Notes under the pieces: model-generated
What the model saw: the letters and a program-made list of their open reading frames with translations, nothing else
Databases searched by the model: none
Told to the model about the DNA's origin: nothing
Part shown: piece after piece, positions 2,565 to 24,586 of the stretch
How positions within the stretch are numbered: the first letter of the stretch is position 1
Layout of the letters: the number at the start of each line of letters is the position of its first letter
Program-made: the position numbers and the translations under genes
IMG/VR virus record: IMGVR_UViG_3300045988_137040
Reading direction: 5' to 3' (one strand)
DNA from: a virus
DNA length: 64,000 bases

Positions 2565-2757
2565 GGTCGCTATCGCTCCACGAATTTTTAGGGTCGCTAC
2601 GCTTGAAATGGAACGTTATCCGTAAAATTAAATTTAGAATTATACTGCACAATCTACCACACGGATAGGGTATGCAATAGCTTAATTCTAAAGTTAATTT
2701 TACGTTTAATTTCAAGCACGAAGTGCGACCCAAAAGAATAAGTACGAAGTGCGACCC
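2565..2757. repeat. composite hairpin repeat, copy A
   Basis: GGTCGCTATCGCTCC module, then a long imperfect palindrome closed by GGGTCGC (2591) and GCGACCC (2731). The arms are built from 12-bp AT-rich modules (CGTAAAATTA / TTTAGAATTA). A second ACGAAGTGCGACCC lies at 2744-2757. Confidence 0.85.
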
Positions 2758-2762
2758 GATAG

Positions 2763-3605
2763 TTATGCGTCAGCCCAGTAAGTCCACGTCTTTAACTTAC
2801 GTGTGCCATAGCGTTTGAGATAGGCGTTGAGACGTTTCTCGAACTTCTCACGCTCGTGCTTCACCCCTTCTAAGATAGTCTTGCGGTCAGCCTCCGTCAT
2901 CTTCATGTGGTCGCCATGGTATTTCGACGGATTTTCCTGCACGTCCCATTCCGACCACGCTTTCCACTGCCATAGGTTCAGCGGCTCCGTCTGGGAATAA
3001 CTCTCACGCTGGAGATAGAGCGTTGTGCCGTCATGCGACAGCGATTGCAACTGCTCAATATCCTTATCGAACTGTGCAAGGTTCTCACGAAGGAAGTATT
3101 GTTTCAGCCGCTCCTCGCTCGACGTTATGCGGTTGTAAGCGTCAAGGCTCGGCCCCTCGTCAGCCCAACAGAAGCGGTTCTCGATAGACGGCTTCTTAAA
3201 TTTGAGGATGCCTCCATTCTGCAAACGCACGGCATAAGAGAACTGCTTGCACTCATAATAGTCAAGCATGTGCTCATCGCTCCACACCTTAGCCATCTCC
3301 CGTTTGAACTCGGGCAACAGAGCCTTGTCGCCCGACGGCTTCTTTTCCGCCGTCTCCTCGGCCTTGATAGCGGCAAGCACGTCATTGAAATCTTCTTCGC
3401 CAAAGCTCTCACCACAAGAGAGCCCATCGGGAAAGTCGCTCGTGTCTTGCACCATCAGTTCCGGCTCGCGCTCATCACGGTGGAGCGCATAGCACTTACT
3501 AAGAAAGTCGTCATAGTTCTTGCAACTCTTAAGGCTTATCCAACCACCGGCAATAGAGCCGTTGTTATACTTGGCGTATGTGCCAACATATACTTTAGGA
3601 TTCAT
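2763..3605 (-). CDS. ardA: ArdA-like antirestriction protein (N-terminal ArdA domain, extended C-terminus)
   Basis: N-terminus KVYVGTYAKYNNGSIAGGWISL ... DDF ... matches the conserved ArdA N-domain pattern (YvanLaaYNeGkLvGeWi). Confidence 0.6.
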   Translation of the reverse strand: MNPKVYVGTYAKYNNGSIAGGWISLKSCKNYDDFLSKCYALHRDEREPELMVQDTSDFPDGLSCGESFGEEDFNDVLAAIKAEETAEKKPSGDKALLPEFKREMAKVWSDEHMLDYYECKQFSYAVRLQNGGILKFKKPSIENRFCWADEGPSLDAYNRITSSEERLKQYFLRENLAQFDKDIEQLQSLSHDGTTLYLQRESYSQTEPLNLWQWKAWSEWDVQENPSKYHGDHMKMTEADRKTILEGVKHEREKFEKRLNAYLKRYGTRKLKTWTYWADA

Positions 3606-3628
3606 ATCGTTGTGATTTAGAATTGTTG

Positions 3629-5041
3629 TTATGCTGCTTTAGCTTGTGTTCTCGATTTCTTCTCCAGCTTCACGAACTCCGCCTTGTTGTCCGTGATAAG
3701 CTTCCGTATCTCCTTGTCACGCTCCGGCACCGCGTTGCAGGCGGCACGGCACTGCACGATAGTGTTCGATGCCATGTTGTACTCGATGGTGGCCAAACGC
3801 TTGCCGTTGTCGTCCTTGGCAGAGAGGATAAGACTTTCGGGGTGGGTAAAATAATTCCAATAGCCCATGCGGTACACGCAGTGGTGCATGTGCTCGGCTT
3901 CTTCCTTGAACTCGTCAACGCTTTGCAGCGGACGGATAGTAAGGTTCGTGGAAGTCAAGTCGATTGTCAGCATCTTGCCCATGTGCTCGGGATAGTGTTG
4001 CGCTGCCTCGGCCTCCCGCTTGGCACGCTTAGCGCACTCCGCATTGTAGAGTATCATGTCTTGCCTCCGTCGCTCAGCCGCCATAGCCTGTAGTCTGGCT
4101 TCGGCAATTTCGTCGATACGCCTCTTGCGCTTCAGCAACATGTCATGCAGGGCGTGCAGATTGTCGGGACACACAAACTTAGGATTGTGGATGTCCATGT
4201 GCAGGAACGTCAGCAGATAGAGCGTGTCAAGCCATAGCGAAGGGTCGTCGATATGATATTTATGTCGGATGCAAATCTTCACGGCCGCCTCCCCACCATG
4301 GGGCAGACGGGTTCGGTTACGCACAAGATGGTCGAAGAGCGGTGTCTGAGAAGCAGACAGCATCGTCTCAGCGATAGGATAGGCTATCACACGGATGCAG
4401 CTGGTGTTATAGTCGTACTTGTCCATCAGTCCCGGCACGTCCTTGTACTGCCACTGCTTAGTGAGCGATTTTATCTCATAGTTCCACACATAGAGATTCT
4501 TCCGCATCATGGAGCCCCAACCCATGCAGTTAGGTGACAACTCCCGGCGAAGTATCAATGGTGAGGACTTGCTGAAGGCGTCATACGCATAGGACATAAC
4601 ATTTACAGTACGCTCATATACCTTGCGCTCTCCCGTAGGAGCATACATGATGCGCTCAATCTCCCACGCATGCACCTGCGCTGCCTTGCCATATTGCAGC
4701 TTACGCTCCACGCGGACATAGCGCACCAACTGAATGTCACGCTTAGCCTCGAAGATAGCAATATCACGAAGCTCGGTATCCACTCGGCGGCGATTTAGCT
4801 CCACCGTCTTTTTCTCCGTCCACTTGGCATGGCACTGAGGACATTCGTGCTGGCCGATAGGGTTGATAGAGCAACCGCACTCGGTGCAGAAGTAAACCAG
4901 CTCGCCACGCAACACCCTCGAAGCAAGACCGGGCTTGAACAGTTTACGATAGAGGCGGTGGGTCTCCGTCTTGCCGGGTTCGTCATGCAGACGCTTGTTG
5001 ATAGCGGCGCAGCGTCTGCCAAATTCTGTCACTCGTTTCAT
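3629..5041 (-). CDS. pcfJ: PcfJ-like protein
   Basis: C-terminal FKEEAEHMHHCVYRMGYWNY ... RLATIEY ... IVQCRAACN matches the PcfJ domain signature. The start overlaps the stop of the PcfK-like gene by 4 nt, as in pcfK-pcfJ pairs of Bacteroides conjugative elements. Confidence 0.75.
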   Translation of the reverse strand: MKRVTEFGRRCAAINKRLHDEPGKTETHRLYRKLFKPGLASRVLRGELVYFCTECGCSINPIGQHECPQCHAKWTEKKTVELNRRRVDTELRDIAIFEAKRDIQLVRYVRVERKLQYGKAAQVHAWEIERIMYAPTGERKVYERTVNVMSYAYDAFSKSSPLILRRELSPNCMGWGSMMRKNLYVWNYEIKSLTKQWQYKDVPGLMDKYDYNTSCIRVIAYPIAETMLSASQTPLFDHLVRNRTRLPHGGEAAVKICIRHKYHIDDPSLWLDTLYLLTFLHMDIHNPKFVCPDNLHALHDMLLKRKRRIDEIAEARLQAMAAERRRQDMILYNAECAKRAKREAEAAQHYPEHMGKMLTIDLTSTNLTIRPLQSVDEFKEEAEHMHHCVYRMGYWNYFTHPESLILSAKDDNGKRLATIEYNMASNTIVQCRAACNAVPERDKEIRKLITDNKAEFVKLEKKSRTQAKAA

Positions 5042-5442
5042 TTCTTTTCCTCCTGCTTTAAGTCCTCGTCCGTTTCGTCATAGTAGTGTACGGCCATGCT
5101 GTAGATTACCTCTGGAGAGCGGAAGATGCCCACGGCAGACTTGCCTTTGCGGTTAGCCTTGGCCACCTTCAGCATCTTGCCGAAGATGTATTCACAGCAT
5201 CCGTCGATGCTCTTTCCGGGTGCTGCAAGTTTCTCGATGATGTCGGGACGGGAATACAGATAACCCTCGATAGCCTCCTTGAACTCCTTGGGGATGACAT
5301 AGCTCGCACCGCCCTCGCTCTTTTTGGTATCGGCGTGGGCCTTGGAAGTACGCTTAGACTCGCTCTTAGGCTGAGCCTCTTGTTCACGCTGCTGCTTCAG
5401 TTCCTCGGCAGCGGCTTTGATAGCTGATAAATCAATAGCCAT
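5038..5442 (-). CDS. pcfK: PcfK-like protein
   Basis: FKEAIEGYL....GKSIDGCCEYIFGKM...VIYSMAVHYYDE matches the PcfK-like family pattern. It sits immediately upstream of PcfJ. Confidence 0.7.
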   Translation of the reverse strand: MAIDLSAIKAAAEELKQQREQEAQPKSESKRTSKAHADTKKSEGGASYVIPKEFKEAIEGYLYSRPDIIEKLAAPGKSIDGCCEYIFGKMLKVAKANRKGKSAVGIFRSPEVIYSMAVHYYDETDEDLKQEEKK

Positions 5443-5477
5443 AATTGCTTGAAATTTGAAAGTTGTTATTGTGTGTT

Positions 5478-5682
5478 GATCGCTAACGCTCCCATGATTT
5501 AGTGGTCGCTACACTCGAAATGAAACGTAAAATTATCCGTAAAATTAAATTTAGAATTATCCTGCGCAACCTGCAACGAGCATGGTATGCGATAGCTAAT
5601 TTTACGTTTAATTCTAAAGTTAATTTTACGTTCCATTTCAAGCCGCGAAGCGGCGACCGAAAAAGAAGAGCGCGTAGCGCCC
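5478..5682. repeat. composite hairpin repeat, copy B
   Basis: Same architecture as copy A: GATCGCTAACGCTCC module, a TGGTCGC...GGCGACCG closing stem, and arms with three 12-bp modules each (CGTAAAATTA, CGTAAAATTA, TTTAGAATTA). Confidence 0.85.
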
Positions 5683-5689
5683 AATAAAA

Positions 5690-6682
5690 TTACGCTGCCT
5701 TGATGATAGGCTCTAAATCTTTTATCTTGCAGCCTAACGACTTGGCCAGCGTCTCGAACGCGCGGCGGATGCGTGCTTTCACCTGTGCCTCGGTATAGAG
5801 CTCCTCGCCATCGGTAGCGGACGACTTAGAAGCCTTGGCCGTCGCCTTGGCTTTCTCAGCCTCCTGCTTCTTTGCCTCACGCTGAGCCTTGCGCTCCAGA
5901 TACTCCGCCTTCTGCTCGGCACGCTTAGCAACCAGGGCCTCGGTGTTCGTCTCAACGATGTCGAGGAGGTCGTCGAAGTCGCAGCCCTCGTTCAGAGCGT
6001 TGCACACCTCACGGGCAGCGTCGGTATAGCGTGGGCTAAACAAGAGCACATAGACACGCTTGCCGTCCTTGCGCTCCCATGTGTGGGAGGCGTGGATTTC
6101 ACCTGCACGCTGATAGGCGGGCTCGTCCTCGTCGAGACCCACAATCTTTCCGGCTTCCTTGCCACGCTTGGTGGTGTATGTCGCAAAGGTGTACTTGCCC
6201 TTAGCGGTGCGCTTAGCGGTGCGCTTAGTGGCCTTCGGCTTAGGCTTGGCCTTAGGCTCGTCCTCGATAGGCTCGTCCTCGATAGGCTCTTCCTCGCCCT
6301 CGTCCTCGACAGGCTGCTCACGCACCTTATCCTTGACGATGCGCCCAGTGACCACACGGAGCTTGGCTTTCGGGCGTACAGGCACCGGCTCCTCGTCGAT
6401 AACGTCATCGGCGTTCTCTTCCTCGACCTCGTCCTCGATGGGTTCGCTCTTAGGCTCGGCCTTTGCCTTGGGTGCCTCCTGCTTAGGCTCGTCGTCAGCC
6501 CAGTGCATCTTGCCCTGCTCGACGAGAGAATTGATCGCTCCCTTCGTCATGGGGAATGTCTGTTTCATGCCCTCGCGCTGGAAGTCTACGACCACGCGGT
6601 CGCCGTCAACGCTCTTTATTGTGTACGTGGCAGCACCGCTACCGATAACTAACACTCTGCCTACTTCAAAATTGTTTGCCAT
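5690..6682 (-). CDS. hypothetical protein (330 aa) with an acidic/lysine-rich low-complexity centre
   Basis: Long ORF. The central region has PIEDE-type repeats (EEEPIEDEPIEDEPKAKPKPK). The flanking N- and C-terminal regions look globular. Confidence 0.6.
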   Translation of the reverse strand: MANNFEVGRVLVIGSGAATYTIKSVDGDRVVVDFQREGMKQTFPMTKGAINSLVEQGKMHWADDEPKQEAPKAKAEPKSEPIEDEVEEENADDVIDEEPVPVRPKAKLRVVTGRIVKDKVREQPVEDEGEEEPIEDEPIEDEPKAKPKPKATKRTAKRTAKGKYTFATYTTKRGKEAGKIVGLDEDEPAYQRAGEIHASHTWERKDGKRVYVLLFSPRYTDAAREVCNALNEGCDFDDLLDIVETNTEALVAKRAEQKAEYLERKAQREAKKQEAEKAKATAKASKSSATDGEELYTEAQVKARIRRAFETLAKSLGCKIKDLEPIIKAA

Positions 6683-6722
6683 AGTTGTAAGAAATTAAAA
6701 AGTTGAATATGTTGATTGATTG

Positions 6723-7031
6723 TTATGCGACCTTAGTGTCTAAGTCCTTCATCATACCCTCGGCCACTACTTCCGTAGGGGTAGAGCCGTCGGGGGTGGC
6801 GATGATGGCATAGTGGGCATCGTCACGGGTCAGTGTACGAAAGAGCCATTGAAGGTTTTTCTCAATGGCCTGCTTACGCCACCCTGCGAGATACTTTAGA
6901 GCCGTGGACGCTCGTTTGCATGCAACACGGTTGAAATCGAGGTCGATGGTCTCACCATTCGACAGACGCGATGCGTCAAGATAGGTAGGAGCACCATACC
7001 AGTGCTCTACGATAAATGTCTGTTTACCCAT
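6723..7031 (-). CDS. hypothetical protein (102 aa)
   Basis: I moved the start to the internal ATG at 7031 (MGKQTF...). The longer ORF would read through hairpin D. Confidence 0.5.
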   Translation of the reverse strand: MGKQTFIVEHWYGAPTYLDASRLSNGETIDLDFNRVACKRASTALKYLAGWRKQAIEKNLQWLFRTLTRDDAHYAIIATPDGSTPTEVVAEGMMKDLDTKVA

Positions 7032-7044
7032 GGAATTTGATTTA

Positions 7045-7082
7045 GGGTCGCTACGCTCCAACGGATTAGGAGCGATAGCGAC
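7045..7082. repeat. mini hairpin, copy D, made of the GGTCGCTAnCGCTCC module
   Basis: GGGTCGCTACGCTCC - AACGGATTA - GGAGCGATAGCGAC. This is the same 15-mer module that precedes copies A and B, here in inverted orientation. Confidence 0.8.
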
Positions 7083-7092
7083 AAATGAAATA

Positions 7093-8779: not shown

Positions 8780-8808
8780 AGTCGTAATTTTTTGAAAGTT
8801 ATACAAAA

Positions 8809-8866
8809 GTTCCGTGTGGGGAATCGAACCCCATAGCACCTTTGCAGTGCCACACCATGCACGGAA
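8809..8866 (-). ncRNA. tRNA-like element R2 (7-bp acceptor-like stem, one stem-loop, canonical T-arm, no D-arm)
   Basis: Minus strand: TTCCGTG - CAT - GGCAC/TGCAAAG/GTGCT region - TGGGG-TTCGATT-CCCCA - CACGGAA - C. Total is about 57 nt, too short for a canonical tRNA. Confidence 0.35.
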
Positions 8867-8912
8867 AGCACACCCCCACCCCGTAGGGGATAGGGTGCAT
8901 GATAGTGTTGCA

Positions 8913-9608
8913 TTAAGCAGCCTTCTTGCTGCTCTTGCGTGTGCTCTTGCGAGCGGACTTTTTAGCCTCCTTTTTTGCGCCCGTAGCAACCTCCTGCTTA
9001 GGCTGCTCTTCAACGAACATAGTCCACGTGCCATCAGCATCCTTCACGACGTGTGCCCACTGCTCCACCTTTTTGTCGGTAGATACGTTGACATAGCCCT
9101 CCTTGATAGCGGCACACGCTTTCTCCGACTTGTCAATCTTTGCGAATGTGTCCTCCACAAAGACGCTCTGCTGCAAACCACGCAGAATGTTGGTCTGATT
9201 GACAACGACGGCGTTGTCAAACTTTTTCTTGTCGGTAGCACTCACCACAGGGCAAAGGGTCTGCACTGATACACGGGTGTACTTGCCCTCCACTTTCTGC
9301 TGATAGAGCGGATATTCGTAGCCCATGAAGTTCACCATATAGGGCACACCATGTGCCATATACACCTGCCCGTCCTTCATCATGCGCCCGCTCCAAGCCG
9401 TGAAGATGTCCTTTGGCTTGTAGCTGTTCTTTGCCACGTGTACACCGAGGGACTGCATGAGTTCCAACGGGCGCACCTTCTCCTTGTCGCTGATAGCCAC
9501 GTAGCCACCGATGCCAGAGATAGCCTTGCACACCTGATTCCATGACATAGCCTTTGCAGCCATAGACTTAACACCATTGTTGATTGACTTTTTGCTTGTG
9601 ATAATCAT
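8913..9608 (-). CDS. hypothetical protein (231 aa) with a lysine-rich C-terminal tail
   Basis: First long ORF of the early-left operon. The C-terminus is KKEAKKSARKSTRKSSKKAA. Confidence 0.6.
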   Translation of the reverse strand: MIITSKKSINNGVKSMAAKAMSWNQVCKAISGIGGYVAISDKEKVRPLELMQSLGVHVAKNSYKPKDIFTAWSGRMMKDGQVYMAHGVPYMVNFMGYEYPLYQQKVEGKYTRVSVQTLCPVVSATDKKKFDNAVVVNQTNILRGLQQSVFVEDTFAKIDKSEKACAAIKEGYVNVSTDKKVEQWAHVVKDADGTWTMFVEEQPKQEVATGAKKEAKKSARKSTRKSSKKAA

Positions 9609-11488: not shown

Positions 11489-11986
11489 TCACTGCTCACT
11501 CTCCTGCTTTCCCATCACTACCCGACTTCTGAGGTTGCTGTCCTTGGGGTTGTCGAGCTCCACCAGTCCGTCCATGGCGATGAATATTTTCTTCTTCTTC
11601 CCTTTTGACTCAATGGCCTTGCGGACCCGGATGCCGCGCTCGCCGGGGAAGAGGGCGAAGGCCTCATGGGTGGGGTCAAAGTGTGACTCAGCCACCTCAC
11701 GTTTGAGGTTGTTGGCAGGCAGGAACTTCACGATGAGACGTGGCGGCAGCTCCACCATGCGTGTGGTGCCGTCTTTCTCGATACGCTTATAATGGCGTGC
11801 AGGACGCTGGCGCACGACGAAGGTGCCGAAGCTCTCCACCGTCACGCAGCGGTAGTTGCCCTCGCAGAGCATATACCGCATCTCGTCGAAGAGGGCAGGG
11901 AGCACCACCTGGCAAGTGGCGATGCTGATACCACTGCGTTTAGATACGGCCTGCGCAAGCCTGTATAGGTACTTCTTCGGTTCCAT
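11489..11986 (-). CDS. HU/IHF-family DNA-binding protein with a C-terminal extension
   Basis: VTVESFGTFVVRQRPARHYKRIEKDGTTRMVELPPRLIVKFLPANNLKREV matches the HU fold beta-arm pattern (FGtFevrer.aR.grNP.TGe.i.ip....v.Fkp...Lk). Confidence 0.75.
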   Translation of the reverse strand: MEPKKYLYRLAQAVSKRSGISIATCQVVLPALFDEMRYMLCEGNYRCVTVESFGTFVVRQRPARHYKRIEKDGTTRMVELPPRLIVKFLPANNLKREVAESHFDPTHEAFALFPGERGIRVRKAIESKGKKKKIFIAMDGLVELDNPKDSNLRSRVVMGKQESEQ

Positions 11987-17268: not shown

Positions 17269-17347
17269 TTGCGGTTTCGCAAACATGTGCTTTTGTGCAA
17301 CCGCATGGTCGTGCAACCGCACGGTTGCACGACCATGCGGTTATGCA
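17269..17347. repeat. 8-bp-register GGTT/AACC box array O1, containing a 22-bp-arm palindrome
   Basis: caaccgca tggtcgtg caaccgca cggttgca cgaccatg cggttatg. Positions 17297-17346 form a near-perfect inverted repeat. Confidence 0.85.
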
Positions 17348-17349
17348 AA

Positions 17350-17703
17350 TTAATCACCTTCTTGCGATGGCTTCAAGGAGAGAGGTTTCGCTTCTTGCCA
17401 TCCTGTCTCCTCCACATATCCGTCTTTCTCTTTTAAGTACATGACACGCTGACCATTTAACCAGTGCCACACGAACCCTTGTTCCAGAAGCATCCTCTCT
17501 GCTTCCGGCCAAGGGTCTCCGATGTCAATGGTGGCTCGCATGCCCATGGCGTCTCGAAGTTGGCCTACATCCATGACCTCTACACCGAGGTTGAAATTAG
17601 GCCACGGCATCCAGCGACTCACAAATGAGAAGACCATCGTCTCTATGTTGCTTTTTGCGGAGTCAATATCCGTCACATACGTTGGTTTCTTGTCATTACT
17701 CAT
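17350..17703 (-). CDS. hypothetical protein (117 aa)
   Basis: ATG-initiated ORF between two octamer arrays in the terminase block. Confidence 0.55.
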   Translation of the reverse strand: MSNDKKPTYVTDIDSAKSNIETMVFSFVSRWMPWPNFNLGVEVMDVGQLRDAMGMRATIDIGDPWPEAERMLLEQGFVWHWLNGQRVMYLKEKDGYVEETGWQEAKPLSLKPSQEGD

Positions 17704-17726
17704 GATTTTCCCTTTTGATTTTATGT

Positions 17727-17790
17727 TACACGGTTGTGCGGTTACACGACTATGCAGCTATGCGGCTATGCGGTTACACGACTATGCGAC
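17727..17790. repeat. 8-bp-register array O2
   Basis: cggttgtg cggttaca cgactatg cagctatg cggctatg cggttaca cgactatg cgactcga. Includes an 18-bp direct repeat. Confidence 0.85.
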
Positions 17791-17800
17791 TCGAATAAGG

Positions 17801-18310
17801 CTAAACGTATAAGCCCTTGTCAACACATAGGTTCAACGGCTCTTCTCTTGTGAACTGTACGAGGACGGCAAACCAGCCGTTTTCCAAAGGTCCAACGGAT
17901 TGATAAGAAACGTCGGTATCGTCGAGGGCGATACGCGCGTAGTCGCCGTCCATCTTCCCCTCGTTTATTTCTTTGTCGTGCTTGTCGAGGAGCCACGCCA
18001 CGAAGTTGCGGGCATGATGCAACGCCTCTTGCTTTGCCACGGCAGCGTCATTGCCGTCTGCCATCTTGTTTGCTCGGACGAAGAAATAAACCGGGTAATT
18101 GAACTCTGGCCTGCGGATTGAGCCCCTGTCGCTCTCTATGGTGCTCTCCATCACGACACATGGCGACTGCATGTTACTTATGCCTTTGGCCATCTCAACC
18201 ACTCCCTTCCACGAGTCGGTGAACATGAACCGTATGTTCCCATTGTTCGGATTATGCAGCATATACATGTACCGTGAACACCAATGCTCTACTATTGAAT
18301 AGAATGTCAT
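17801..18310 (-). CDS. hypothetical protein (169 aa)
   Basis: ATG-initiated ORF in the terminase block. No motif recognised. Confidence 0.55.
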   Translation of the reverse strand: MTFYSIVEHWCSRYMYMLHNPNNGNIRFMFTDSWKGVVEMAKGISNMQSPCVVMESTIESDRGSIRRPEFNYPVYFFVRANKMADGNDAAVAKQEALHHARNFVAWLLDKHDKEINEGKMDGDYARIALDDTDVSYQSVGPLENGWFAVLVQFTREEPLNLCVDKGLYV

Positions 18311-18335
18311 GTCTCTTAAAATCTATGTTCTTGAT

Positions 18336-18372
18336 TATGCAACCGCATGGTTGTGCGGTTGGGCGGTTGCTT
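18336..18372. repeat. 8-bp-register array O3
   Basis: atgcaaccgcatggttgtgcggttgggcggttgc, with GGTT boxes every 8 bp. Confidence 0.8.
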
Positions 18373-18378
18373 GATTTG

Positions 18379-19440
18379 TTACTTGGGGATTCTGATTTTA
18401 TAAAACGCCGCAGTCTTTTTCATGCTCTCAGAAAGTTCCACGCCGAGCCCTATCAGTTCTTTAGCGTTCTCTTTCCATTGTTTCTTATGTTCAGGCGTGC
18501 CGGCAGGTCTTGGGTCCCGCAGCCACTTTTGGAGGTATTTAACACGTGCGGCTTTTTCCTCGTCGGTATATATCTTCGATGGCGCGCGTTTCTTTTTGTG
18601 TCTTGTTTGACGTTCACCATCCTGTCCCTTGTCAATACTCGGAGTTCGTGTCTCATCCGCCACCTTGCCGTTCTCGTCAAGGACATGCGCCATGCCTAAA
18701 TCATCCACGACAACACGTCCGGTGCTCGCCACTTTATCCCATTCTTTATCGAGCTCCCTTCTGAGGTCACCAATTCCCTTGTCGAGCGCCACGGCAGTTT
18801 TAGCCCATCGCTCCCTTTCTGTAGCCGTGGCTCCAACGTCATCCATGAGCAACCGCATGTTTCCGCGAGCAGTTCCAAGGTCTTTCATCATCTGACCATA
18901 ATTAGCCGCACGCTTCCGCGTCTCCTCTGGTAACAAATGTGCGTATTGGTCAATATGCTTCGGGCGAGGGACAGCCGCCCCAACCTCAGTGACGACAGCG
19001 TTTATTTTTGCGGTTGTGCTGTCTTGCGGTTGCACGACCGTGCAACTTTGCGGTTGTGCAGCCAACGTGGTATCATGCCCTGGTGTTGGCTTTACTCCTG
19101 GTCTTTGCAGACATTGTGTGAGGACATCTATAATACGGTGTATGCTGCGCTTGGCAGCCTTGGTATAAATCATGGTGGGTAGCCACGTGTCGACAATTCC
19201 CGCAAAGGGAGTCATTAGGCGCACGCCCTCGTTGAAGGCGTCTTGGGCGTCGGTAGACCAGCCACCGCACACTTGCTCAACGCTCATTATCCTCGCCGAC
19301 GGTTCATTGGCTTTAGGCAAAAGGATATTGGCTTCCTGCTTCAGCCACTCCCCTACCCTCTTAGAGAGGTCTTGCTTTTCGCCTTCCGTCATGTTGCTCA
19401 CTCTTCTAAGCCACTCGTTAGACGCTATCCGGTATATCAT
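18379..19440 (-). CDS. hypothetical protein (353 aa), containing intragenic octamer array O4
   Basis: Continuous ORF. The C-terminal half is charged and helical. Confidence 0.55.
   Translation of the reverse strand: MIYRIASNEWLRRVSNMTEGEKQDLSKRVGEWLKQEANILLPKANEPSARIMSVEQVCGGWSTDAQDAFNEGVRLMTPFAGIVDTWLPTMIYTKAAKRSIHRIIDVLTQCLQRPGVKPTPGHDTTLAAQPQSCTVVQPQDSTTAKINAVVTEVGAAVPRPKHIDQYAHLLPEETRKRAANYGQMMKDLGTARGNMRLLMDDVGATATERERWAKTAVALDKGIGDLRRELDKEWDKVASTGRVVVDDLGMAHVLDENGKVADETRTPSIDKGQDGERQTRHKKKRAPSKIYTDEEKAARVKYLQKWLRDPRPAGTPEHKKQWKENAKELIGLGVELSESMKKTAAFYKIRIPK
19008..19062. repeat. 8-bp-register array O4, inside the 353-aa CDS
   Basis: cggttgtg ctgtcttg cggttgca cgaccgtg caactttg cggttgtg. 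On the minus strand it encodes ...AAQPQSCTVVQPQDSTT... Confidence 0.8.
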
Positions 19441-19540
19441 ATTGATAGTATATAATTGTTTTATGGGCTAAAGATAATACAGACGTGACAAGTAGGCAAG
19501 GGCAAGGGCAAGAGTTCTCATTATTAAAAATGTTTAATAT

Positions 19541-19688
19541 TATGCGGTTTTGCGGTCGCACGGTTGTGCGGTTGCAGAATTTTCAATAACTTTGCATCGC
19601 TACAACAAAACAAGACCGTTCGATTTTGTGGTTACACAGTCGCACAACCGCATAATTGCAGTAACTTGCGGTCGCACATCTGCGCATA
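19541..19688. promoter_or_regulatory. parA-upstream centromere/operator candidate (arrays O5a 19541-19580 and O5b 19626-19688 flanking a promoter)
   Basis: O5a: atgcggtt ttgcggtc gcacggtt gtgcggtt. O5b: cgattttg tggttaca cagtcgca caaccgca taattgca gtaacttg cggtcgca. Between them lies TTGT - 19 nt - TAacTTTG (19563-19594). Confidence 0.55.
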
Positions 19689-19714
19689 TTCATATTTTAT
19701 ATAAAGCTACATTT

Positions 19715-20581
19715 ATGAGTAAGGTAAAATCTACACATCTCCGGCACATAGTTGCCGTGAGCAACAACAAGGGTGGGGCAGGGAAGACCACCACGGTATT
19801 GAACCTCGCTGCGGCAATCGCGCGCAAAGGCTACCACGTGCTTGTCATCGACACTGACCCTCAATGCAACCTCTCGCTCTCTGTAGGATGGGACACGACA
19901 AGAGAGGGCACGCGAACCAAACCTGGCGAGCCGACTATCTTCAATGCGATATGCCTCGGACAGAACATCCCCGTCTATCGCAATGAGACAGGGTTGTACT
20001 ATACGCCGTCATCTCCGCGCATGGAAGACGCCGACATCCACTTGAACAGCTCTGAGGTGACAGACCCTGTGCGTGTGTTGAAGATGCTCTTCGCTGAACC
20101 TATAGACGACCACACGGGCGAGGGCTTGAAAGAGTGGGAAAGCAGCTTCGACTTCATCTTCATCGACACACAGCCTGCCATGAGCCGAGTCACGGTCAAC
20201 GTGATATGCGCGGCCACGGGTATCATCATACCAGTTGAACTGGAGCCGTTGGCCGTTGACGGCTATGTCAAGACCATCGGTAAAATCATGAAGATTAAAA
20301 AGGTGAGCAATCCATCCCTGCAAATCCACGGTATCCTGCTCACCAAGAAAGACCGACGACTGGTAAGCGCACGGAGTTTCGAGGAACAACTGCGTGAGGA
20401 GGGAGACGTTTTCGAGACGACCATCAGCCGCACCAACGATGTGCCCAACTCGCAAGACCGGGACTACGACGAACGGCCCGGTATCTGTCACGACATCTTC
20501 AGCTACCAAAAAGGCAGAGGACGTGCCAAGGAAGATTTCACCAACCTTGCCGAAGAGTATATCAAGAAGTGGGGAAAGTAA
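19715..20581 (+). CDS. parA: ParA/Soj-family partition ATPase
   Basis: Deviant Walker A VAVSNNKGGAGKTTT and VLVIDTDPQCNLS. The start is set at the ATG at 19715; the listed ORF begins at a TTG inside the repeat array. Confidence 0.85.
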   Translation: MSKVKSTHLRHIVAVSNNKGGAGKTTTVLNLAAAIARKGYHVLVIDTDPQCNLSLSVGWDTTREGTRTKPGEPTIFNAICLGQNIPVYRNETGLYYTPSSPRMEDADIHLNSSEVTDPVRVLKMLFAEPIDDHTGEGLKEWESSFDFIFIDTQPAMSRVTVNVICAATGIIIPVELEPLAVDGYVKTIGKIMKIKKVSNPSLQIHGILLTKKDRRLVSARSFEEQLREEGDVFETTISRTNDVPNSQDRDYDERPGICHDIFSYQKGRGRAKEDFTNLAEEYIKKWGK

Positions 20582-20740
20582 CACAACCGCACGACCATGC
20601 AACTGCATAACTGCAATAATATGCAACCACTTAACTACATAACCGCATAGTTGAGCAGTTGGGCAGTTACTAAAACACACGTATGTGCAACTATGTGGTT
20701 GCATAGTTGTGTGGTCGCACAGATAAGCAACCGCAAAAAA
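20581..20740. repeat. 8-bp-register array O6 (20 consecutive octamers) between parA and the small downstream gene
   Basis: acacAACC gcacGACC atgcAACT gcatAACT gcaaTAAT atgcAACC acttAACT acatAACC gcatAGTT gagcAGTT gggcAGTT ... atgtGGTT gcatAGTT gtgtGGTC ... aagcAACC. Box orientation flips midway. Confidence 0.85.
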
Positions 20741-21637: not shown

Positions 21638-21894
21638 TTTGGCACTCACATCTATAGCCGACACTTCCGTTTTTGTCGGGATTTTCAACTTGCTAAATAC
21701 TTCTAACTCAAAGGTTTACAAATTTAGCTATTTCTAATTATTCTTTGAAGTTACTAATTTGTCGGTAAAGCTATAAATCTGTCATCAAAGTTGTGTTTTT
21801 CCGACCGACCTAATTATTAGGCAGTTACGGCTATATATTTGGATTATACTATATCGACCACTCTATATATCAACAACTTATGGACTTTGCCAAA

Positions 21895-22284
21895 TTGAGG
21901 ACAGATTAACAGCTAAAAGAAAAAATCAAAAATACTCGATTCTTATTATATAATTATTGGTATAGATAGTATATAGTATATAAGGCTTTGTAACTTATTG
22001 ATAATCAAATAATAGCAAGGTGAATTGAGGACAGATTAATAGCTTTTTGAGGACAGATTAATAGGTTTCGGGGGACAGATTAATAGCTTTTTGAGGACGG
22101 ATTAATAGGTATTATCTATGAATTGAGGACAAATTAATAGCTTTGGAAACTCCGACAAATAGGTAACTCCATATTATTGAGGACAATTTTATAGCTTTAT
22201 CAATTATTTAAGGAGTGCTAAAATTCAAAACTATCTGAAAATAAACACGTAAAGCCTTGTGTAATTGAGGACAAATTTATAACT
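21895..22284 (+). promoter_or_regulatory. iteron-type replication origin (8 iterons plus an AT-rich unwinding region)
   Basis: Eight copies of about 20 bp, consensus TTGAGGACAGATTAATAGCT, at 21895, 22025, 22047, 22069, 22091, 22123, 22177 and 22265. The central four are spaced exactly 22 bp apart. A very AT-rich tract lies at about 21925-22015. The last iteron overlaps a TAacTTTG -7 box (22280-22287) upstream of rep. Confidence 0.85.
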
Positions 22285-22350
22285 TTGCCAACAAATGGTA
22301 AAAGACATGGCTACAACTGTCCGAGCTACCACACATTAAAAGCTACAAAC

Positions 22351-23562
22351 ATGGCAAGAAAATCACGAAAGGCTGAGCAGCTCAAGCAAGAGTTGTTGAG
22401 CACAGTGCAGCAGCAGGAGCTGATTACTCAGCCTGTTACCTTCGCTTACATCAAAGGTGAGATGTCAGTGATGCAGGCACGTATTCAGACAATCATCATG
22501 GAGAAGCTGCAACTGCGCATCGCAAAGTTCTTAAAGGAGAGGGCGCATGATGGCTTTGCTGGATGCTTATTCTCCGATGAAGATTTCGCCCCGCTCAAGG
22601 GGGAAAATGACAAGAGCAGGTATCTCACGTTCAGTGTGAAATACTCAGAGCTCGGCATACCGTCGGCAAATTACCGCTACGTCTCGGACGCTGCGAGAGC
22701 CATGCAGGGCTCTTTGGTATATGAAAAAAGCATTGTTGACGACGGAAAGACTTATAAGCGATATATCGTTGCTTTTCCCGTAGTCGATGTCCCGGACGAG
22801 AGCCTTGGAGAGCGACGCACTGACATCAAGCTCCACATGACAGAGAGCACTGCAAAATATCTCTTCCGTATTACGCCCTATCACCGATACCTTAAAGACG
22901 CGGTGTTTCTATTCAACAGCGGATATACGGGCAGGATATATCTGCTTATCAATGCCAATAAGCAGTTGGGTACATGGAATATTGACTACGACGAGCTGCG
23001 CAAGATACTCCTTACCACCTATGACAAAGAAAATGATAAATATGTCTGTGACAAATACCCTGATATTAGGGATTTCAAGCGCCGTGTCCTCGAACCGGCC
23101 CGCAAGGAAATCATGGAGGTCGCAAAACGTATTGACTGCACTTTCGACTACGAAATAAAAAAGAAGCGTGGCTCGAATGAGAACATCAAGATAGTTTTCC
23201 ATATCCACCTCACAGACCTCGGAAAGAACATCAAGCAGGGGCAGCTGGAAAGCCAGGAGGCCGTGACGCTGCGCAATGCGCTGATGAACCTGCATATCAC
23301 CATCACCGACGCAAACAGGTTGATGAAGCAAGTCTCCGCCGAGCAATATCCAGCTCTAACCAACAAGGCAAGAGAACTGATGAAATACTACCAAGACGTC
23401 AGAGAGGGGAGGGCAAAGGGAGTCTCAATCAAGGACTACCGAGCCCATGCCGTTAAGTCCCTTCAAAACATTATCTTAGGAAAAGGCAACTTCTTCAGCG
23501 AAGCCGTCGAGATAAATGACAAGCCTATTTCAGAACCCCAAAAATCATTAAACGAATGGTAA
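22351..23562 (+). CDS. rep: plasmid-type replication initiator (Rep_3/RepB-like, iteron-binding)
   Basis: Lies directly downstream of the iterons. NSGYTGRIYLLI......GTWNIDYDELRKIL.....YPDIRDFKRRVLEPARKEI matches the second winged-helix pattern of the Rep_3 family (S.Y.iRlYell...G...i...eLr..L....Y..f.dfkrrVlepa.kEi). Confidence 0.75.
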   Translation: MARKSRKAEQLKQELLSTVQQQELITQPVTFAYIKGEMSVMQARIQTIIMEKLQLRIAKFLKERAHDGFAGCLFSDEDFAPLKGENDKSRYLTFSVKYSELGIPSANYRYVSDAARAMQGSLVYEKSIVDDGKTYKRYIVAFPVVDVPDESLGERRTDIKLHMTESTAKYLFRITPYHRYLKDAVFLFNSGYTGRIYLLINANKQLGTWNIDYDELRKILLTTYDKENDKYVCDKYPDIRDFKRRVLEPARKEIMEVAKRIDCTFDYEIKKKRGSNENIKIVFHIHLTDLGKNIKQGQLESQEAVTLRNALMNLHITITDANRLMKQVSAEQYPALTNKARELMKYYQDVREGRAKGVSIKDYRAHAVKSLQNIILGKGNFFSEAVEINDKPISEPQKSLNEW

Positions 23563-24434
23563 GAACAACGAAACCCAATTATACCGCCCTCTGGCAGCAG
23601 TGCCTTAACTATATCCGTGACCGTTACCCTAAGGGCGAGAAGTACGACCACTGGTTCAACGTCTGGTACGGCGACGTGAAGTTTGAGAGCTATGATGCCG
23701 ACAAACGTCAGTTGCGTATCAACGTGCCGTCGAAGTATGTGTACGAGTACCTCGAGACGCACCAACTGGAAACGCTCAATGAGGCTCTGCGGGCCACTTT
23801 TAAGGAACAGGTGGTGCTGTCCTACCATATAGCTCCGCAAGAGCCGTCATTCGCTGATATGGCTGCTTACCTGCAACGGCAGTCGGGTGGGGTAGGACAG
23901 GGTAAAATCCATATCCATATCGACAACGCAAGAGAACGGTTGGAAGATGGTTTGAAATACTATCTGAAGGATAAACCTGTCACATGGCTACCGGGTTATG
24001 AGCATATCGTCCGATGGTTGACCGACAACGACAACCGGGGACTGTTGTGTTTCGGCTATTCGGGGGTGGGAAAAACATTGATATGTCAAAAGATTCTTCC
24101 GATACTGATAGGCCGGCCCGTTGTCAGTGTCAGGGCAACAGACCTGCACGACCGTCTCGAAGAGCTGAAGCGTGAGCGCATCGTCGTCATCGACGACCTC
24201 GGCAAGGAGCCACGCAAACACTATGGCGACACCGACCAGAGTTTCTACGAGTTGTGCGACAATGCCGAGCATACTGGCAACATCCTTATCATCACCACGA
24301 ACCTCTCCACCAATACCGTTGACGACCCACACTATCCCGACAGCATAAAGAACCGCTATGGTGAAGAAGTTTTTACCCGGCTGAAGGCCATCACTCACAC
24401 CGCACGTATTGAAGCCGAGAGCCTGCGCGAGTGA
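23556..24434 (+). CDS. DnaA-N-like / DnaC-IstB-like AAA+ ATPase (putative helicase loader)
   Basis: Walker A GYSGVGKT and Walker B RIVVIDDLG. The N-terminus LWQQCLNYIRDRY....W...V....FESYD...LRINVPSKYVYEYLE resembles DnaA domain I. ATGGTAA overlaps the rep stop. Confidence 0.7.
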   Translation: MVRTTKPNYTALWQQCLNYIRDRYPKGEKYDHWFNVWYGDVKFESYDADKRQLRINVPSKYVYEYLETHQLETLNEALRATFKEQVVLSYHIAPQEPSFADMAAYLQRQSGGVGQGKIHIHIDNARERLEDGLKYYLKDKPVTWLPGYEHIVRWLTDNDNRGLLCFGYSGVGKTLICQKILPILIGRPVVSVRATDLHDRLEELKRERIVVIDDLGKEPRKHYGDTDQSFYELCDNAEHTGNILIITTNLSTNTVDDPHYPDSIKNRYGEEVFTRLKAITHTARIEAESLRE

Positions 24435-24437
24435 TAT

Positions 24438-24543
24438 GGGCGCCGCTTCGCAGCTTGAAATTAAACGTAAAATTATCCGTAAAATTAAACTTAAAATTAT
24501 TCAACCAACCAAGGCTTGCTGAGAGATAGGGTAGTGGGCGCCC
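24438..24543. repeat. composite repeat, copy C (half-size variant)
   Basis: GGGCGCC...GGCGCCC closing stem and GCTTGAAATT, followed by four direct 12-bp modules (aattaaacgtaa aattatccgtaa aattaaacttaa aattattc). Located at the convergent junction between the replication module and the late block. Confidence 0.75.
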
Positions 24544-24586
24544 AAAGGAAAGGAATTGATGCGACCAGTATCAATTCCACGTCTCT

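What the first reader, a model, noticed from the sequence alone, without database searches (positions are those of the whole stretch)
2565..7082. Family of composite hairpin repeats punctuating the anti-restriction operon
Seen in sequence: copies A (2565-2757) and B (5478-5682) share three parts.
- A GGTCGCTAnCGCTCC module.
- A GC-rich closing stem GGGTCGC...GCGACCC.
- Long AT-rich arms built from 12-bp modules (nnCGTAAAATTA, aaTTTAGAATTA) in inverted order around a ~35-nt loop.

Copy D (7045-7082) is a small hairpin made from two inverted copies of the 15-mer module alone. The copies sit just upstream (in the direction of transcription) of ardC, of pcfK-pcfJ-ardA, and of the 102-aa gene.

Established knowledge: in conjugative plasmids, leading-region anti-defence genes are often preceded by large hairpins that act as single-strand promoters or initiation sites.

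Inference, speculative: these could be analogous ssDNA or RNA structures, binding arrays for the HU-like or another phage protein, RNA processing or attenuator sites, or a miniature mobile repeat.
Basis: partly seen in the sequence, partly recalled or inferred. Interest (0 to 1): 0.65.

Follow-up and report, generated by a model that had tools for sequence, protein, structure and literature searches.

The report
Gene-less palindromic repeats of GxxExxY element
The hairpin repeats between the phage's anti-restriction genes are real, and they are most likely miniature, gene-less copies of a small palindromic element whose full-length form, found in sister phages and in Bacteroidales chromosomes, carries a nuclease-fold gene of unknown function (GxxExxY); this gives that gene family a testable role.

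Summary
A (2565-2757) and B (5478-5682) are 83% identical composite palindromes, D (7045-7083) is a box-only hairpin, and a further copy C lies at 24438-24543.

The basic unit is not the hairpin but a ~60-95-nt half-unit: GC box(es) GGTCGC-N3-GC, then TTGAAAT, then 2-4 AT-rich modules phased at 12 bp. Elsewhere half-units also occur singly, in tandem and nested. The two arms match because both fit one consensus; there is no compensatory covariation.

The window is phage-like with plasmid functions (terminase, tape measure, Rep3, ParA) and is not conjugative. The units lack the host -33/-7 promoter and match no Rfam family, so the ssDNA-promoter analogy is not supported.

Key result: all 12 GxxExxY (PD-(D/E)XK, PF13366) genes examined have these half-units next to them. 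In sister genomes (L235-L238) such a gene sits exactly at the C locus, and its arms are 50-53/59 identical to the arms of A and B. One identical 573-nt element, bounded by the boxes, occurs in different bacterial contexts.

Near-identical phages differ at the units. Best reading: MITE- or REPIN-like derivatives of a GxxExxY-carrying element. Mobility and nuclease action are inferred, not shown.

The parts
2565..2757 (-). Unit A: complete gene-less palindromic unit, with the polarity of the minus-strand operon. On the + strand it reads: outer box 2565-2579 (GGTCGCTATCGCTCC), inner box 2591-2602 (GGGTCGCTACGC), TTGAAAT plus 12-bp modules 2603-2642, centre 2643-2682, inverted modules 2683-2716, inner box with GAA mini-hairpin 2716-2731 (GCACGAAGTGCGACCC), A-rich spacer, outer box 2742-2757.
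   Evidence: An HMM built only from arms that flank GxxExxY genes hits 2587-2647 (E 1.3e-6) and 2681-2735 (E 7e-4).
5478..5682 (-). Unit B: complete gene-less unit with one more 12-bp module per arm than A. Outer box 5478-5492, inner box 5504-5514, modules 5526-5559, centre 5560-5596, inverted modules 5597-5630, inner box with GAA mini-hairpin 5643-5658 (CCGCGAAGCGGCGACC), outer box and small hairpin 5668-5682, followed on the minus strand by TTCTTTTT.
   Evidence: HMM hits at 5598-5654 (E 2.4e-4) and 5500-5555 (E 9.7e-4). The right arm is 53/59 identical to the right arm of the GxxExxY element in L235.
7045..7083 (-). Unit D: minimal form with two inverted GC boxes only (GGTCGCTACGCTCC ... 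GGAGCGATAGCGAC), a 9-nt loop and no AT modules. It lies 13 nt upstream of the ATG of the 102-aa gene.
   Evidence: folds at -22 kcal/mol. The box is the next-best HMM hit, 7041-7058 at E 0.14; on its own that is weak.
24438..24543 (+). Copy C: an internally deleted unit. It keeps the left arm (box GGGCGCCGCTTCGCAGC, TTGAAAT and three direct 12-bp modules, 24438-24499), about 36 nt of remnant sequence, and the terminal box GGGCGCCC (24536-24543). It starts 4 nt after the stop codon of the DnaC-like gene.
   Evidence: E 7.9e-5. It is 78/78 identical to left arm #2 of L235. Sister genomes carry a GxxExxY gene plus an inverted right arm at this locus.

Best explanation
A, B, C and D are gene-less members of a family of modular palindromic elements found in Bacteroidales and their phages.

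Anatomy. Each arm (half-unit) consists of a terminal GC box (GGTCGC-N3-GC, often doubled, with a T-rich or A-rich spacer between the two boxes), the motif TTGAAAT, and 2-4 AT-rich modules phased at 12 bp. The full-length form carries a ~140-aa GxxExxY protein between the arms. This protein has the PD-(D/E)XK nuclease fold, and its D...ExK motif is intact.

What is shown:
1. The window's arms belong to the same sequence family as the arms that flank GxxExxY genes.
2. Sister genomes carry such a gene exactly at the C locus, and its arms closely resemble those of A and B.
3. An identical full-length element, bounded by the GC boxes, lies in different chromosomal contexts.
4. Near-identical phages differ in the presence, size and type of units.

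What is inferred:
1. The GxxExxY protein binds the phased subterminal modules and cuts at or near the terminal boxes, moving or copying the element. The gene-less units would be mobilised in trans or spread by recombination, like MITEs or REPINs.
2. Because the units lie inside a ~10-kb operon with no internal host-type promoter, they are co-transcribed. They would then fold into long AU-rich hairpins that RNase III would be expected to cut.
3. As dispersed patches of homology they serve as joints for gain and loss of gene cassettes. The window's C arrangement is what recombination between the two direct left arms of an L235-like ancestor would produce.
For: Family and anatomy
- The half-unit consensus was derived from 35 non-redundant copies.
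- Single arms, tandem direct arms and nested double units exist in relatives.

Non-circular membership test
- An HMM built only from arms flanking GxxExxY genes, none of them from the window's lineage, finds exactly five hits in 64 kb on both strands. These are the two arms of A, the two arms of B, and C, at E 1e-6 to 1e-3. The next hit is D's box (E 0.14), then noise.

Association with GxxExxY
- 12 distinct GxxExxY proteins were examined.
- 11 have half-unit HMM hits at E<0.01 within 260 nt upstream or 360 nt downstream.
- The twelfth (L217) has phased repeats of its own sequence type, visible by eye.
- 7 of the 12 show the arrangement left arm - gene - right arm.

The window's own lineage
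- L235-L238 are 84-97% identical to window 23352-25365.
- They carry GxxExxY protein P0027 between the DnaC-like gene and the Stealth_CR2 gene, which is the locus of C.
- The right arm there is 57/59 the reverse complement of the left arm. It is 53/59 identical to B's right arm and 50/59 to A's.
- The left arm is present twice (75/78 between the two copies); the second copy is 78/78 identical to the window.

Signs of mobility
- The identical protein P0052 occurs in at least 3 different bacterial contexts.
- L223 and L224 share 573 nt at 99% identity, running from GGGTCGC... to ...GCGACCC, and their flanks are unrelated.
- The gene is followed by 0, 1 or at least 2 gene-less units in otherwise matching copies.

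Polymorphism in phages that are 96-99% identical in the flanking genes
- The site of B holds a full unit in the window, a medium unit of another sequence type plus an extra gene in L089, and a 47-nt hairpin in L090.
- L090 lacks ArdA together with unit A.
- L089 and L090 have a B-like copy (95-97% identical) after ArdC, where the window has none.

Arms are conserved as sequence, not as pairs
- At variable columns, true partner arms are 0.52 identical and non-partner arms 0.57.
- 87.8% of cells are paired against 88.5% after shuffling partners.

Catalytic motif
- D74, E83 and K85 are invariant among three GxxExxY homologs.
Against: - No target-site duplication or clean empty site was found. The only recurring flank is CAT|GGGTCGC...GCGACCC|ATG. 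The attempt to find an empty site through neighbouring genes failed.
- GxxExxY is not a known transposase. It could be a passenger gene that merely travels with these repeats.
- In two GxxExxY lineages (P0117, P0099) the flanking half-units are direct rather than inverted.
- The 64-kb window encodes no GxxExxY gene.
- In about 15 cases the orientation of a unit follows the direction of the neighbouring genes. Random insertion would not predict this. It fits either a transcription-level role or replication-coupled insertion.
- A and B are only 83% identical, so they are not recent copies of each other.
Confidence: 0.55

Rival explanations
1. Selected transcript punctuation. The units are regulatory RNA structures of the early operon: long AU-rich hairpins, closed by GC clamps, that are cut by RNase III or act as attenuators or insulators. 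They would uncouple and stabilise the cistrons, as the RNase III sites do in the T7 early region.
For: - The units are strictly intergenic, with the same polarity as the flanking genes in about 15 cases.
- They lie inside an operon with no exact host -7 box on the minus strand between about 10110 and 4181; the match at 4174-4181 is inside PcfJ.
- Folding is strongly non-random, with z-scores of -6.6 and -7.6.
- In the window's lineage the sense strand folds 7-14 kcal/mol better than the antisense strand.
- The same operon contains a tRNA-like element at 8809-8898, another possible RNA-processing signal.
- B starts with a small hairpin followed by a T-run.
Against: - There is no compensatory covariation; the variable spacer positions are mostly unpaired.
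- Single arms and tandem direct arms exist.
- In the L172-type lineage the antisense strand folds better. G-U pair counts are 73 on the sense strand and 67 on the antisense strand overall.
- The U-rich tract is 5' of the unit and the A-rich tract 3', so the unit itself is not an intrinsic terminator.
- Near-identical phages do without a unit at a given site, or hold a different one.
- The same family flanks GxxExxY genes in unrelated bacterial operons.
Confidence: 0.2
2. Arrays of binding sites on double-stranded DNA. The phased 12-bp modules and the GC boxes would be operators for a phage or host DNA-binding protein, for example the HU/IHF-like protein at 11489-11986, a repressor, or a partition or silencing protein. 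They would block or modulate transcription in the way that stoperators do in cluster A mycobacteriophages.
For: - The module core (AATTnTAAnT or AAATTTT) and the box are conserved as sequence across lineages, while the spacers vary freely and do not covary.
- Half-units occur singly, in tandem or inverted.
- An HU-fold protein is encoded upstream in the same operon.
Against: - No protein has been linked to the sites.
- The sequence type of the modules differs between genomes, and even within one genome (two types in the 74-kb contig). A single regulator would not predict this.
- The box-only forms (D, and the short L090 unit) have no modules or only one per arm.
- The regular association with GxxExxY genes and the discrete 573-nt element in different contexts are left unexplained, unless GxxExxY itself is the binding protein. 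In that case this rival merges with the best explanation.
Confidence: 0.12
3. Single-stranded DNA signals: hairpins formed on incoming or lagging-strand DNA that act as promoters (like Frpo) or as priming sites (ssi) for the phage primase.
For: - The boxes contain GCG-N-AGC and GC...GAA...GC mini-hairpins of the GNA-triloop type, with the stems varying in a compensatory way: GCAC/GTGC, GCCGC/GCGGC, GCCC/GGGC. The unusual stability of such DNA mini-hairpins is stated from memory.
- The window encodes a 1144-aa primase-like protein.
- As DNA, the B region folds with z-scores of -5.6 and -4.7.
Against: - The element is phage-like, so there is no reason to expect entry as single-stranded DNA. No conjugation genes were found.
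- There is no -33/-7 promoter in the stems.
- PcfK/ArdA regions of conjugative elements lack the units.
- There is no covariation.
Confidence: 0.04

Closest known systems
MITEs, including MITEs shared between Bacteroidota hosts and their phages (Nadal-Molero et al. 2024, PMC11602168), and Correia elements of Neisseria (features of Correia elements stated from memory)
   Same: Small, non-coding, AT-rich and intergenic elements with terminal inverted repeats. Several diverged copies per genome. Presence or absence varies between close relatives. A longer form with the same ends carries a gene. They are co-transcribed and able to form hairpins. Sharing of MITEs between Bacteroides or Prevotella and their phages has been published as a general phenomenon.
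   Different: No target-site duplication was found. The ends are long and modular, with terminal GC boxes plus 2-4 subterminal repeats phased at 12 bp, and they can be duplicated in tandem or nested. Orientation follows the direction of the neighbouring genes. The gene in the full-length form is a 140-aa PD-(D/E)XK protein, not a known transposase.
REPINs and RAYTs (REP doublets forming hairpins, and the REP-associated tyrosine transposase gene flanked by inverted REPs); stated from memory
   Same: Hairpin-forming doublets of a short repeat are dispersed in intergenic regions, and a small gene is itself flanked by the same repeats in inverted orientation.
   Different: The flanked gene has a PD-(D/E)XK fold, not an HUH/Y1 transposase fold. 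The repeat unit is longer and built from phased AT-rich modules. The family lives in phages as well as in chromosomes.
PeSLs, the promoter-early stem-loop cassettes of T4-type phages (Arbiol et al. 2010, PMC2839356; Comeau et al. 2014, PMC4122927)
   Same: Repeated composite intergenic motifs, each a stem-loop plus an AT-rich tract, that flank accessory genes. They lie at the insertion, deletion and replacement boundaries that distinguish closely related phages, and they act as joints for homologous recombination (searches compared).
   Different: PeSLs are defined by a strong host sigma-70 early promoter plus a terminator. The units here contain no exact host -7 box and are not terminators in themselves. 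PeSLs are not long palindromes and have no associated nuclease gene.
RNase III processing hairpins between the early genes of phage T7 (stated from memory)
   Same: Large imperfect hairpins punctuate a long early operon that begins with anti-restriction functions.
   Different: The T7 sites are short, are not built from phased repeats, do not occur as single arms, and are not shared with host chromosomes or with a nuclease gene. Processing was not tested here.

Membership tests
MITE (non-autonomous element with terminal inverted repeats) | Terminal inverted repeats enclosing a short non-coding sequence | tested here: met
   Inverted GC boxes and arms are present in A, B and D. The units are 39-205 nt long and contain only spurious ORFs.
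MITE (non-autonomous element with terminal inverted repeats) | A longer relative with the same ends that encodes the mobilising enzyme | tested here: inconclusive
   Full-length forms with the same arms exist and encode GxxExxY/PDDEXK_3. That this protein mobilises anything is unproven, and it is not a known transposase.
MITE (non-autonomous element with terminal inverted repeats) | Target-site duplication at the insertion point | tested here: inconclusive
   The flanks of A, B, D, the L009 units and the P0052 element show no consistent duplication. The only recurring flank is CAT|...|ATG. No clean empty site was obtained.
MITE (non-autonomous element with terminal inverted repeats) | Presence or absence varies between close relatives, and copies lie in different contexts | tested here: met
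   Comparison of the window with L089, L090 and L235. The identical 573-nt element lies between unrelated flanks.
Frpo/ssi-type single-strand promoters of plasmid leading regions | Location in the leading region of a conjugative element, next to oriT | tested here: not met
   The window encodes terminase, a tape-measure protein, Rep3 and ParA. No relaxase or type IV secretion domains were found in the ORFs scanned.
Frpo/ssi-type single-strand promoters of plasmid leading regions | Host promoter elements formed within the hairpin stem | tested here: not met
   There is no exact TAnnTTTG in the units. Only versions with one mismatch occur, and these are not conserved in L009. Genuine operon heads in the window do have the exact box.
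PeSL (T4-type promoter-early stem-loop) | A strong host-type early promoter within the motif | tested here: not met
   The sigma-70 consensus scan also finds none in A, B or D.
PeSL (T4-type promoter-early stem-loop) | A stem-loop that acts as a terminator | tested here: inconclusive
   Only B has a small hairpin followed by a T-run. In general the U-rich tract precedes the unit and the A-rich tract follows it.
PeSL (T4-type promoter-early stem-loop) | Lies at insertion, deletion and replacement boundaries between close relatives | tested here: met
REPIN/RAYT system | The gene flanked by the repeats is an HUH/Y1 (RAYT) transposase | tested here: not met
   The flanked gene matches PF13366 (PDDEXK_3) and TIGR04256 (GxxExxY).
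Any curated RNA family (Rfam 15) | A match that reaches the family's gathering score | tested here: not met
   No match in the whole window at gathering thresholds. The E-value scans of A and B give only chance-level matches to long-hairpin families, far below gathering scores.
Structured RNA or ssDNA element maintained by selection for pairing | Compensatory covariation between the two arms | tested here: not met
   87.8% of cells are paired against 88.5 +/- 0.8% after shuffling partners; 437 of 500 shuffles were at least as high. The covariation score is 0.084 against 0.087.

The most novel reading that the evidence does not exclude
GxxExxY (PDDEXK_3) proteins form a family of unknown function with thousands of members. 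On this reading they are the nucleases (transposase-like or homing) of a previously unrecognised class of small palindromic mobile elements in Bacteroidota and their phages. The ends of these elements are built from a terminal GC box plus 12-bp phased subterminal repeats that co-evolve with the protein. The hairpins in this window would be the miniature derivatives of such elements. They would shape phage genomes by shuffling cassettes and by being excised from transcripts at the RNA level.
Probability: 0.3. Interest if true: 0.8.

Novelty: new variant of a known kind. Interest (0 to 1): 0.6.

Why it matters
If the reading holds, it does three things.
1. It explains a conspicuous feature of the early anti-defence operon of an uncultivated Bacteroidales phage-plasmid as selfish DNA rather than as an anti-defence device. 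This warns against reading every large hairpin next to ardA or ardC as a leading-region promoter.
2. It gives the widespread GxxExxY/PDDEXK_3 family a concrete, testable hypothesis: a nuclease that acts on its own phased-repeat arms. The family has 4926 homologs at E<=1e-10, and no paper in the searched library describes its function.
3. It identifies the sequences at which gene cassettes, including ardA itself, are gained and lost in this phage lineage. It also provides a repeat shared by host and phage that could be used for host assignment.

Tried and rejected
Searches that found nothing useful
- Exact scans for the AT-module pattern in viral and genome collections gave only chance hits in AT-rich coding DNA.
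- Megablast and blastn of the region and of single units against GenBank phages and PLSDB plasmids gave no match.
- Rfam at gathering and at E-value thresholds gave nothing meaningful.

Functional ideas tested and set aside
- Host promoter in the units: no exact TAnnTTTG. Versions with one mismatch occur in the arms of A and B but are not conserved in L009.
- Unit as an intrinsic or bidirectional terminator: rejected, because the U-rich tract is 5' and the A-rich tract 3' of the palindrome. Only B's outer box looks like a small terminator.
- Strand test by folding energy and G-U counts: inconsistent between lineages, 73 against 67 G-U pairs.
- Covariation between the arms: none.

Ideas considered by eye and dropped
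- Mimic of a CRISPR repeat (GTCGC-hairpin-TTGAAAT resembles type I repeats). The boxes are too short, and no CRISPR-DR family appears among the Rfam matches.
- Lambda-like nut site (boxA-like CGCUCUUC followed by a hairpin in B). It is not conserved in A or in the relatives, and it is mirrored by the palindrome.
- Integron attC sites. No integrase was found and the core sites are absent. The junction GCATAAC at the ArdA cassette is only a microhomology.
- Unwinding element of a replication origin, for C. This is superseded by the finding that C is an arm of a GxxExxY element.

Attempt that failed
- Search for an empty site through the amidohydrolase neighbour of L217: the homologs found are not syntenic.

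Full report
**1.
All genes from about 11150 down to 105 lie on the minus strand. They include an ArdC-like gene (1426-2520), an ArdA-like gene (2763-3605), PcfJ (3629-5041), PcfK (5038-5442), and genes of 330, 102 and 80 aa with no family match.

A (2565-2757) and B (5478-5682) fill the two large gaps between genes and align at 83% identity. The 15-mer GGTCGCTAnCGCTCC occurs three times against 0.4 expected. CGTAAAATTA occurs ten times against 3.5 expected, and all 8 exact matches lie in A, B or a third site near 24470.

Both units fold far better than shuffled sequence. The z-scores are -6.6 and -7.6 as RNA, and -5.6 and -4.7 as DNA. The folds show that the palindrome is doubly nested. The 15-mer at the downstream end pairs with a second GC box just after the upstream stop codon. 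The box GGTCGCTACGC pairs with an inner box that carries a small GAA-loop hairpin.

D (7045-7083) consists of two inverted boxes only. A further copy, C (24438-24543), lies directly after the Rep3/DnaC-like operon.

**2. What kind of replicon this is.**
The window encodes:
- a large terminase;
- a 2983-aa protein with a tape-measure domain, and tail-fibre-like proteins;
- a Rep3 initiator whose nearest relatives are on Bacteroidales plasmids;
- ParA, a DnaC-like loader and a primase-like protein.

No relaxase or type IV secretion domains were seen. The window is therefore a phage, probably a phage-plasmid, of a Bacteroidales host, and not a conjugative element.

Exact Bacteroidetes-type -7 boxes (TAnnTTTG) precede the heads of its operons: 11187, 13193, 49324, 54338 and 55684. 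There is no exact box in A, B or D. On the minus strand there is none between about 10110 and 4181, and the match at 4174-4181 lies inside PcfJ. The units are therefore internal to a long operon. This removes the basis for the analogy with single-strand promoters of plasmid leading regions.

**3. The unit of the family is a half-unit, not a hairpin.**
Relatives were found through PcfK and through the conserved closing stem ATTTCRAGYGNAGCGACC. From 35 non-redundant copies the half-unit reads: three modules of AATTnTAAnTnn at a 12-bp period, then AATTTCAAGCG-N-AGCG(A/C)CC, often followed by an A-rich spacer and a second box GGAGC-N3-GCGACC.

Half-units occur in several arrangements:
- as diverging inverted pairs, which are the hairpins;
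- as single arms (C, L184, L181, L093);
- as tandem direct arrays (three in L187, with a 96-nt period);
- as nested double units (L188).

The sequence type of the modules differs between genomes: CGTAAAATTA and TTTAGAATTA here, AATTCTAAATA and AATTTTAAGTAA in the 74-kb contig, and CTGAAAATTAT in others. The period and the box stay the same.

Pairing between the arms is a by-product of both arms matching the consensus. At variable columns, true partner arms are no more alike (0.52) than non-partner arms from the same genome (0.57). In the formal count, 87.8% of cells are paired against 88.5% after shuffling partners, and the variable spacer positions are mostly unpaired. A comparison of sense and antisense folding gave no consistent strand preference across lineages.

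**4. The units mark differences between near-identical phages.**
L089 and L090 are 96-99% identical to the window in the flanking genes. They differ as follows.
- At the site of B, L089 has a medium-sized unit of another sequence type plus an extra 73-aa gene, and L090 has a 47-nt hairpin made of the closing stems only.
- L090 lacks ArdA together with unit A.
- Both carry a copy of B (95-97% identical) directly after ArdC, followed by genes that are absent from the window.
- The more distant L009 has units before PcfK and after ArdC, but none between ArdA and ArdC.

Not every indel uses a unit. An extra gene in L090 is flanked by a duplicated short leader sequence instead.

**5. The link to GxxExxY genes.**
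In several unit-bearing contigs the centre of a unit is occupied by a 140-aa ORF. It matches PF13366 (PDDEXK_3, E 1.3e-30) and TIGR04256 (GxxExxY, E 2.1e-32). The D...ExK residues are invariant among three homologs.

I then examined 12 distinct homologs, 58-100% identical, from viral contigs and metagenome assemblies.
- 11 have half-unit HMM hits at E<0.01 within 260 nt upstream or 360 nt downstream.
- The twelfth has phased repeats of its own sequence type.
- 7 have the arrangement left arm - gene - right arm.
- For comparison, about 160 PcfK loci (roughly 1.3 Mb) contain units only in the window's own lineage.

The arms of gene-containing units are the most perfect: 55/58 in L170 and 57/59 in L235, against 72-85% for the gene-less units.

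The identical protein P0052 lies in at least three different bacterial contexts. Two of these share 573 nt at 99% identity, running exactly from GGGTCGCTTCGCTTGAAAT... to ...ATTTCGAGCGCAGCGACCC, with unrelated flanks. The gene is followed by 0, 1 or at least 2 gene-less hairpin units. This is the behaviour of a discrete element bounded by the GC boxes. It also shows that the family lives in host chromosomes as well as in phages.

**6. The link holds in the window's own lineage.**
Protein P0027 (76% identical to the L170 protein) is encoded in L235-L238. These contigs are 29-113 kb long and 84-97% identical to window 23352-25365. The gene lies between the DnaC-like gene and the Stealth_CR2 gene, exactly where the window has C.

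L235 reads, in order:
1. left arm #1;
2. the ORF;
3. the right arm;
4. a copy of window 24538-24604;
5. about 80 nt of other sequence;
6. left arm #2;
7. the rest as in the window.

Left arm #2 is 78/78 identical to the window, and the two left arms match at 75/78. The right arm is 57/59 the reverse complement of the left arm. It is 53/59 identical to B's right arm and 50/59 to A's.

Recombination between the two direct left arms would yield the window's arrangement. C is therefore the remnant of a GxxExxY element. A and B have arms of the same sequence type as the gene-carrying copy in sister genomes.

An HMM built only from arms flanking GxxExxY genes in other lineages recovers exactly the five arms in the window (E 1e-6 to 1e-3), then D's box (E 0.14), then noise.

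**7. Interpretation.**
The best-supported reading is that A, B, C and D are gene-less derivatives of a modular palindromic element whose full-length form carries a GxxExxY nuclease-fold gene.

Shown:
- family membership;
- the regular association with the gene;
- a filled locus in sister genomes against a remnant locus in the window;
- identical elements in different contexts;
- polymorphism between close relatives.

Inferred:
- that the protein recognises the phased modules and cuts at the boxes;
- that the small units are mobilised in trans or spread by recombination;
- that, being co-transcribed, they fold into AU-rich hairpins of 30-45 or more base pairs. RNase III would be expected to cut such hairpins, because it cuts long double-stranded RNA with little sequence requirement (established knowledge).

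Points that do not fit neatly:
- No target duplication was found.
- The flanking arms are direct rather than inverted in two lineages.
- Unit orientation follows gene direction. This suits either a transcription-level role or strand-biased insertion, as is known for hairpin-dependent IS200/IS605 elements (from memory).

The rivals are transcript punctuation, arrays of operators on double-stranded DNA, and single-strand signals. They are listed with their evidence in the rival explanations.

**8. Comparison with known systems, and novelty.**
- In the way they shape the genome, the units behave like PeSLs of T4-type phages, but they lack the promoter that defines a PeSL.
- In form and in their relation to a flanked gene, they resemble MITEs, and REPINs with their RAYT. 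However, the gene has a PD-(D/E)XK fold, the ends are long phased-repeat arrays, and no duplication is seen.
- That Bacteroidota and their phages share MITEs is already published in general terms (PMC11602168).
- A role for GxxExxY is not published. The only mentions found are a catalogue entry marked 'Unknown' and incidental annotations.

I therefore rate the finding as a new variant of a known kind. There is a fair chance (about 0.3) that it points to a new class of element-borne nuclease.

Noticed in passing
window 8809-8898 (minus strand): A tRNA-like element lies in the gap between gene 8913-9608 and the next ATG at 8782. It has a 7-bp acceptor-like stem, an anticodon-like arm, a T-arm GGGGTTCGATTCCCC, and no D-arm. 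Rfam gives sub-threshold matches to mascRNA (22.6 bits, E 0.02) and tRNA-Sec (20.8 bits, E 0.08). ARAGORN calls no tRNA. The folding z-score is -3.2. Its 3' part, including the T-arm, is also seen in L090. It could be an RNase P/Z processing signal or the remnant of an attachment site.
   Followed up: partly
window, upstream of the ATGs at 5442, 7335, 7592, 8782, 9608 (and 8070, 6682, more degenerate): A start-associated motif, (T/C)AACTTTCAAA, lies 5-21 nt before the start codons of early-operon genes. It resembles the host -7 box with the final G replaced by C, and also the ATTTCAAG next to the unit boxes. In L090 an extra 86-aa gene is inserted between two copies of this leader.
   Followed up: partly
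L170 3300-3722; L181 11304-11723; L185 3056-3478; L210, L211, L214, L217, L223-L246: GxxExxY/PDDEXK_3 genes are regularly embedded in, or flanked by, phased-repeat half-units. Many homologs sit on very short contigs, as if their flanks break assemblies. In L224, L225 and L228 the neighbourhood is also full of another palindromic repeat, GGTGTCGGATTRCAAATCCGACAC.
   Followed up: yes
window 21893-22292: Six or more copies of a ~22-30-nt repeat (AATTGAGGACAnATTAATAGCT) lie just upstream of the Rep3 gene (22351-23562). They look like iterons of the plasmid-type origin.
   Followed up: no
window 17278-20668: Dispersed direct and inverted repeats built on GCAACCGCA / TGCGGTTGC lie around the genes upstream of ParA (19715-20581) and just after it. 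They are a candidate centromere or regulatory sites.
   Followed up: no
window 39676-39975 and 43854-44153: A 300-nt direct repeat, 87% identical, lies in the tail-fibre region: within gene 39616-40305 (DUF4376) and overlapping gene 43836-44273. In addition, gene 40330-42690 (DUF285/BspA-like) contains long in-frame 21-nt and 78-nt tandem repeats.
   Followed up: no
window 11489-11986 (minus strand): An HU/IHF-fold protein of 165 aa is encoded in the same long minus-strand gene array (Pfam Bac_DNA_binding 6.8e-12; weak matches to IHF-alpha). It is a candidate binder of bent or cruciform DNA. No link to the units was tested.
   Followed up: no
window 6200-6500: The 330-aa protein encoded upstream of B contains short in-frame repeats rich in acidic residues (DNA repeats CTCGTCCTCGATAGGCT and similar). 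No family match was found in Pfam, PHROGs or NCBIfam.
   Followed up: no
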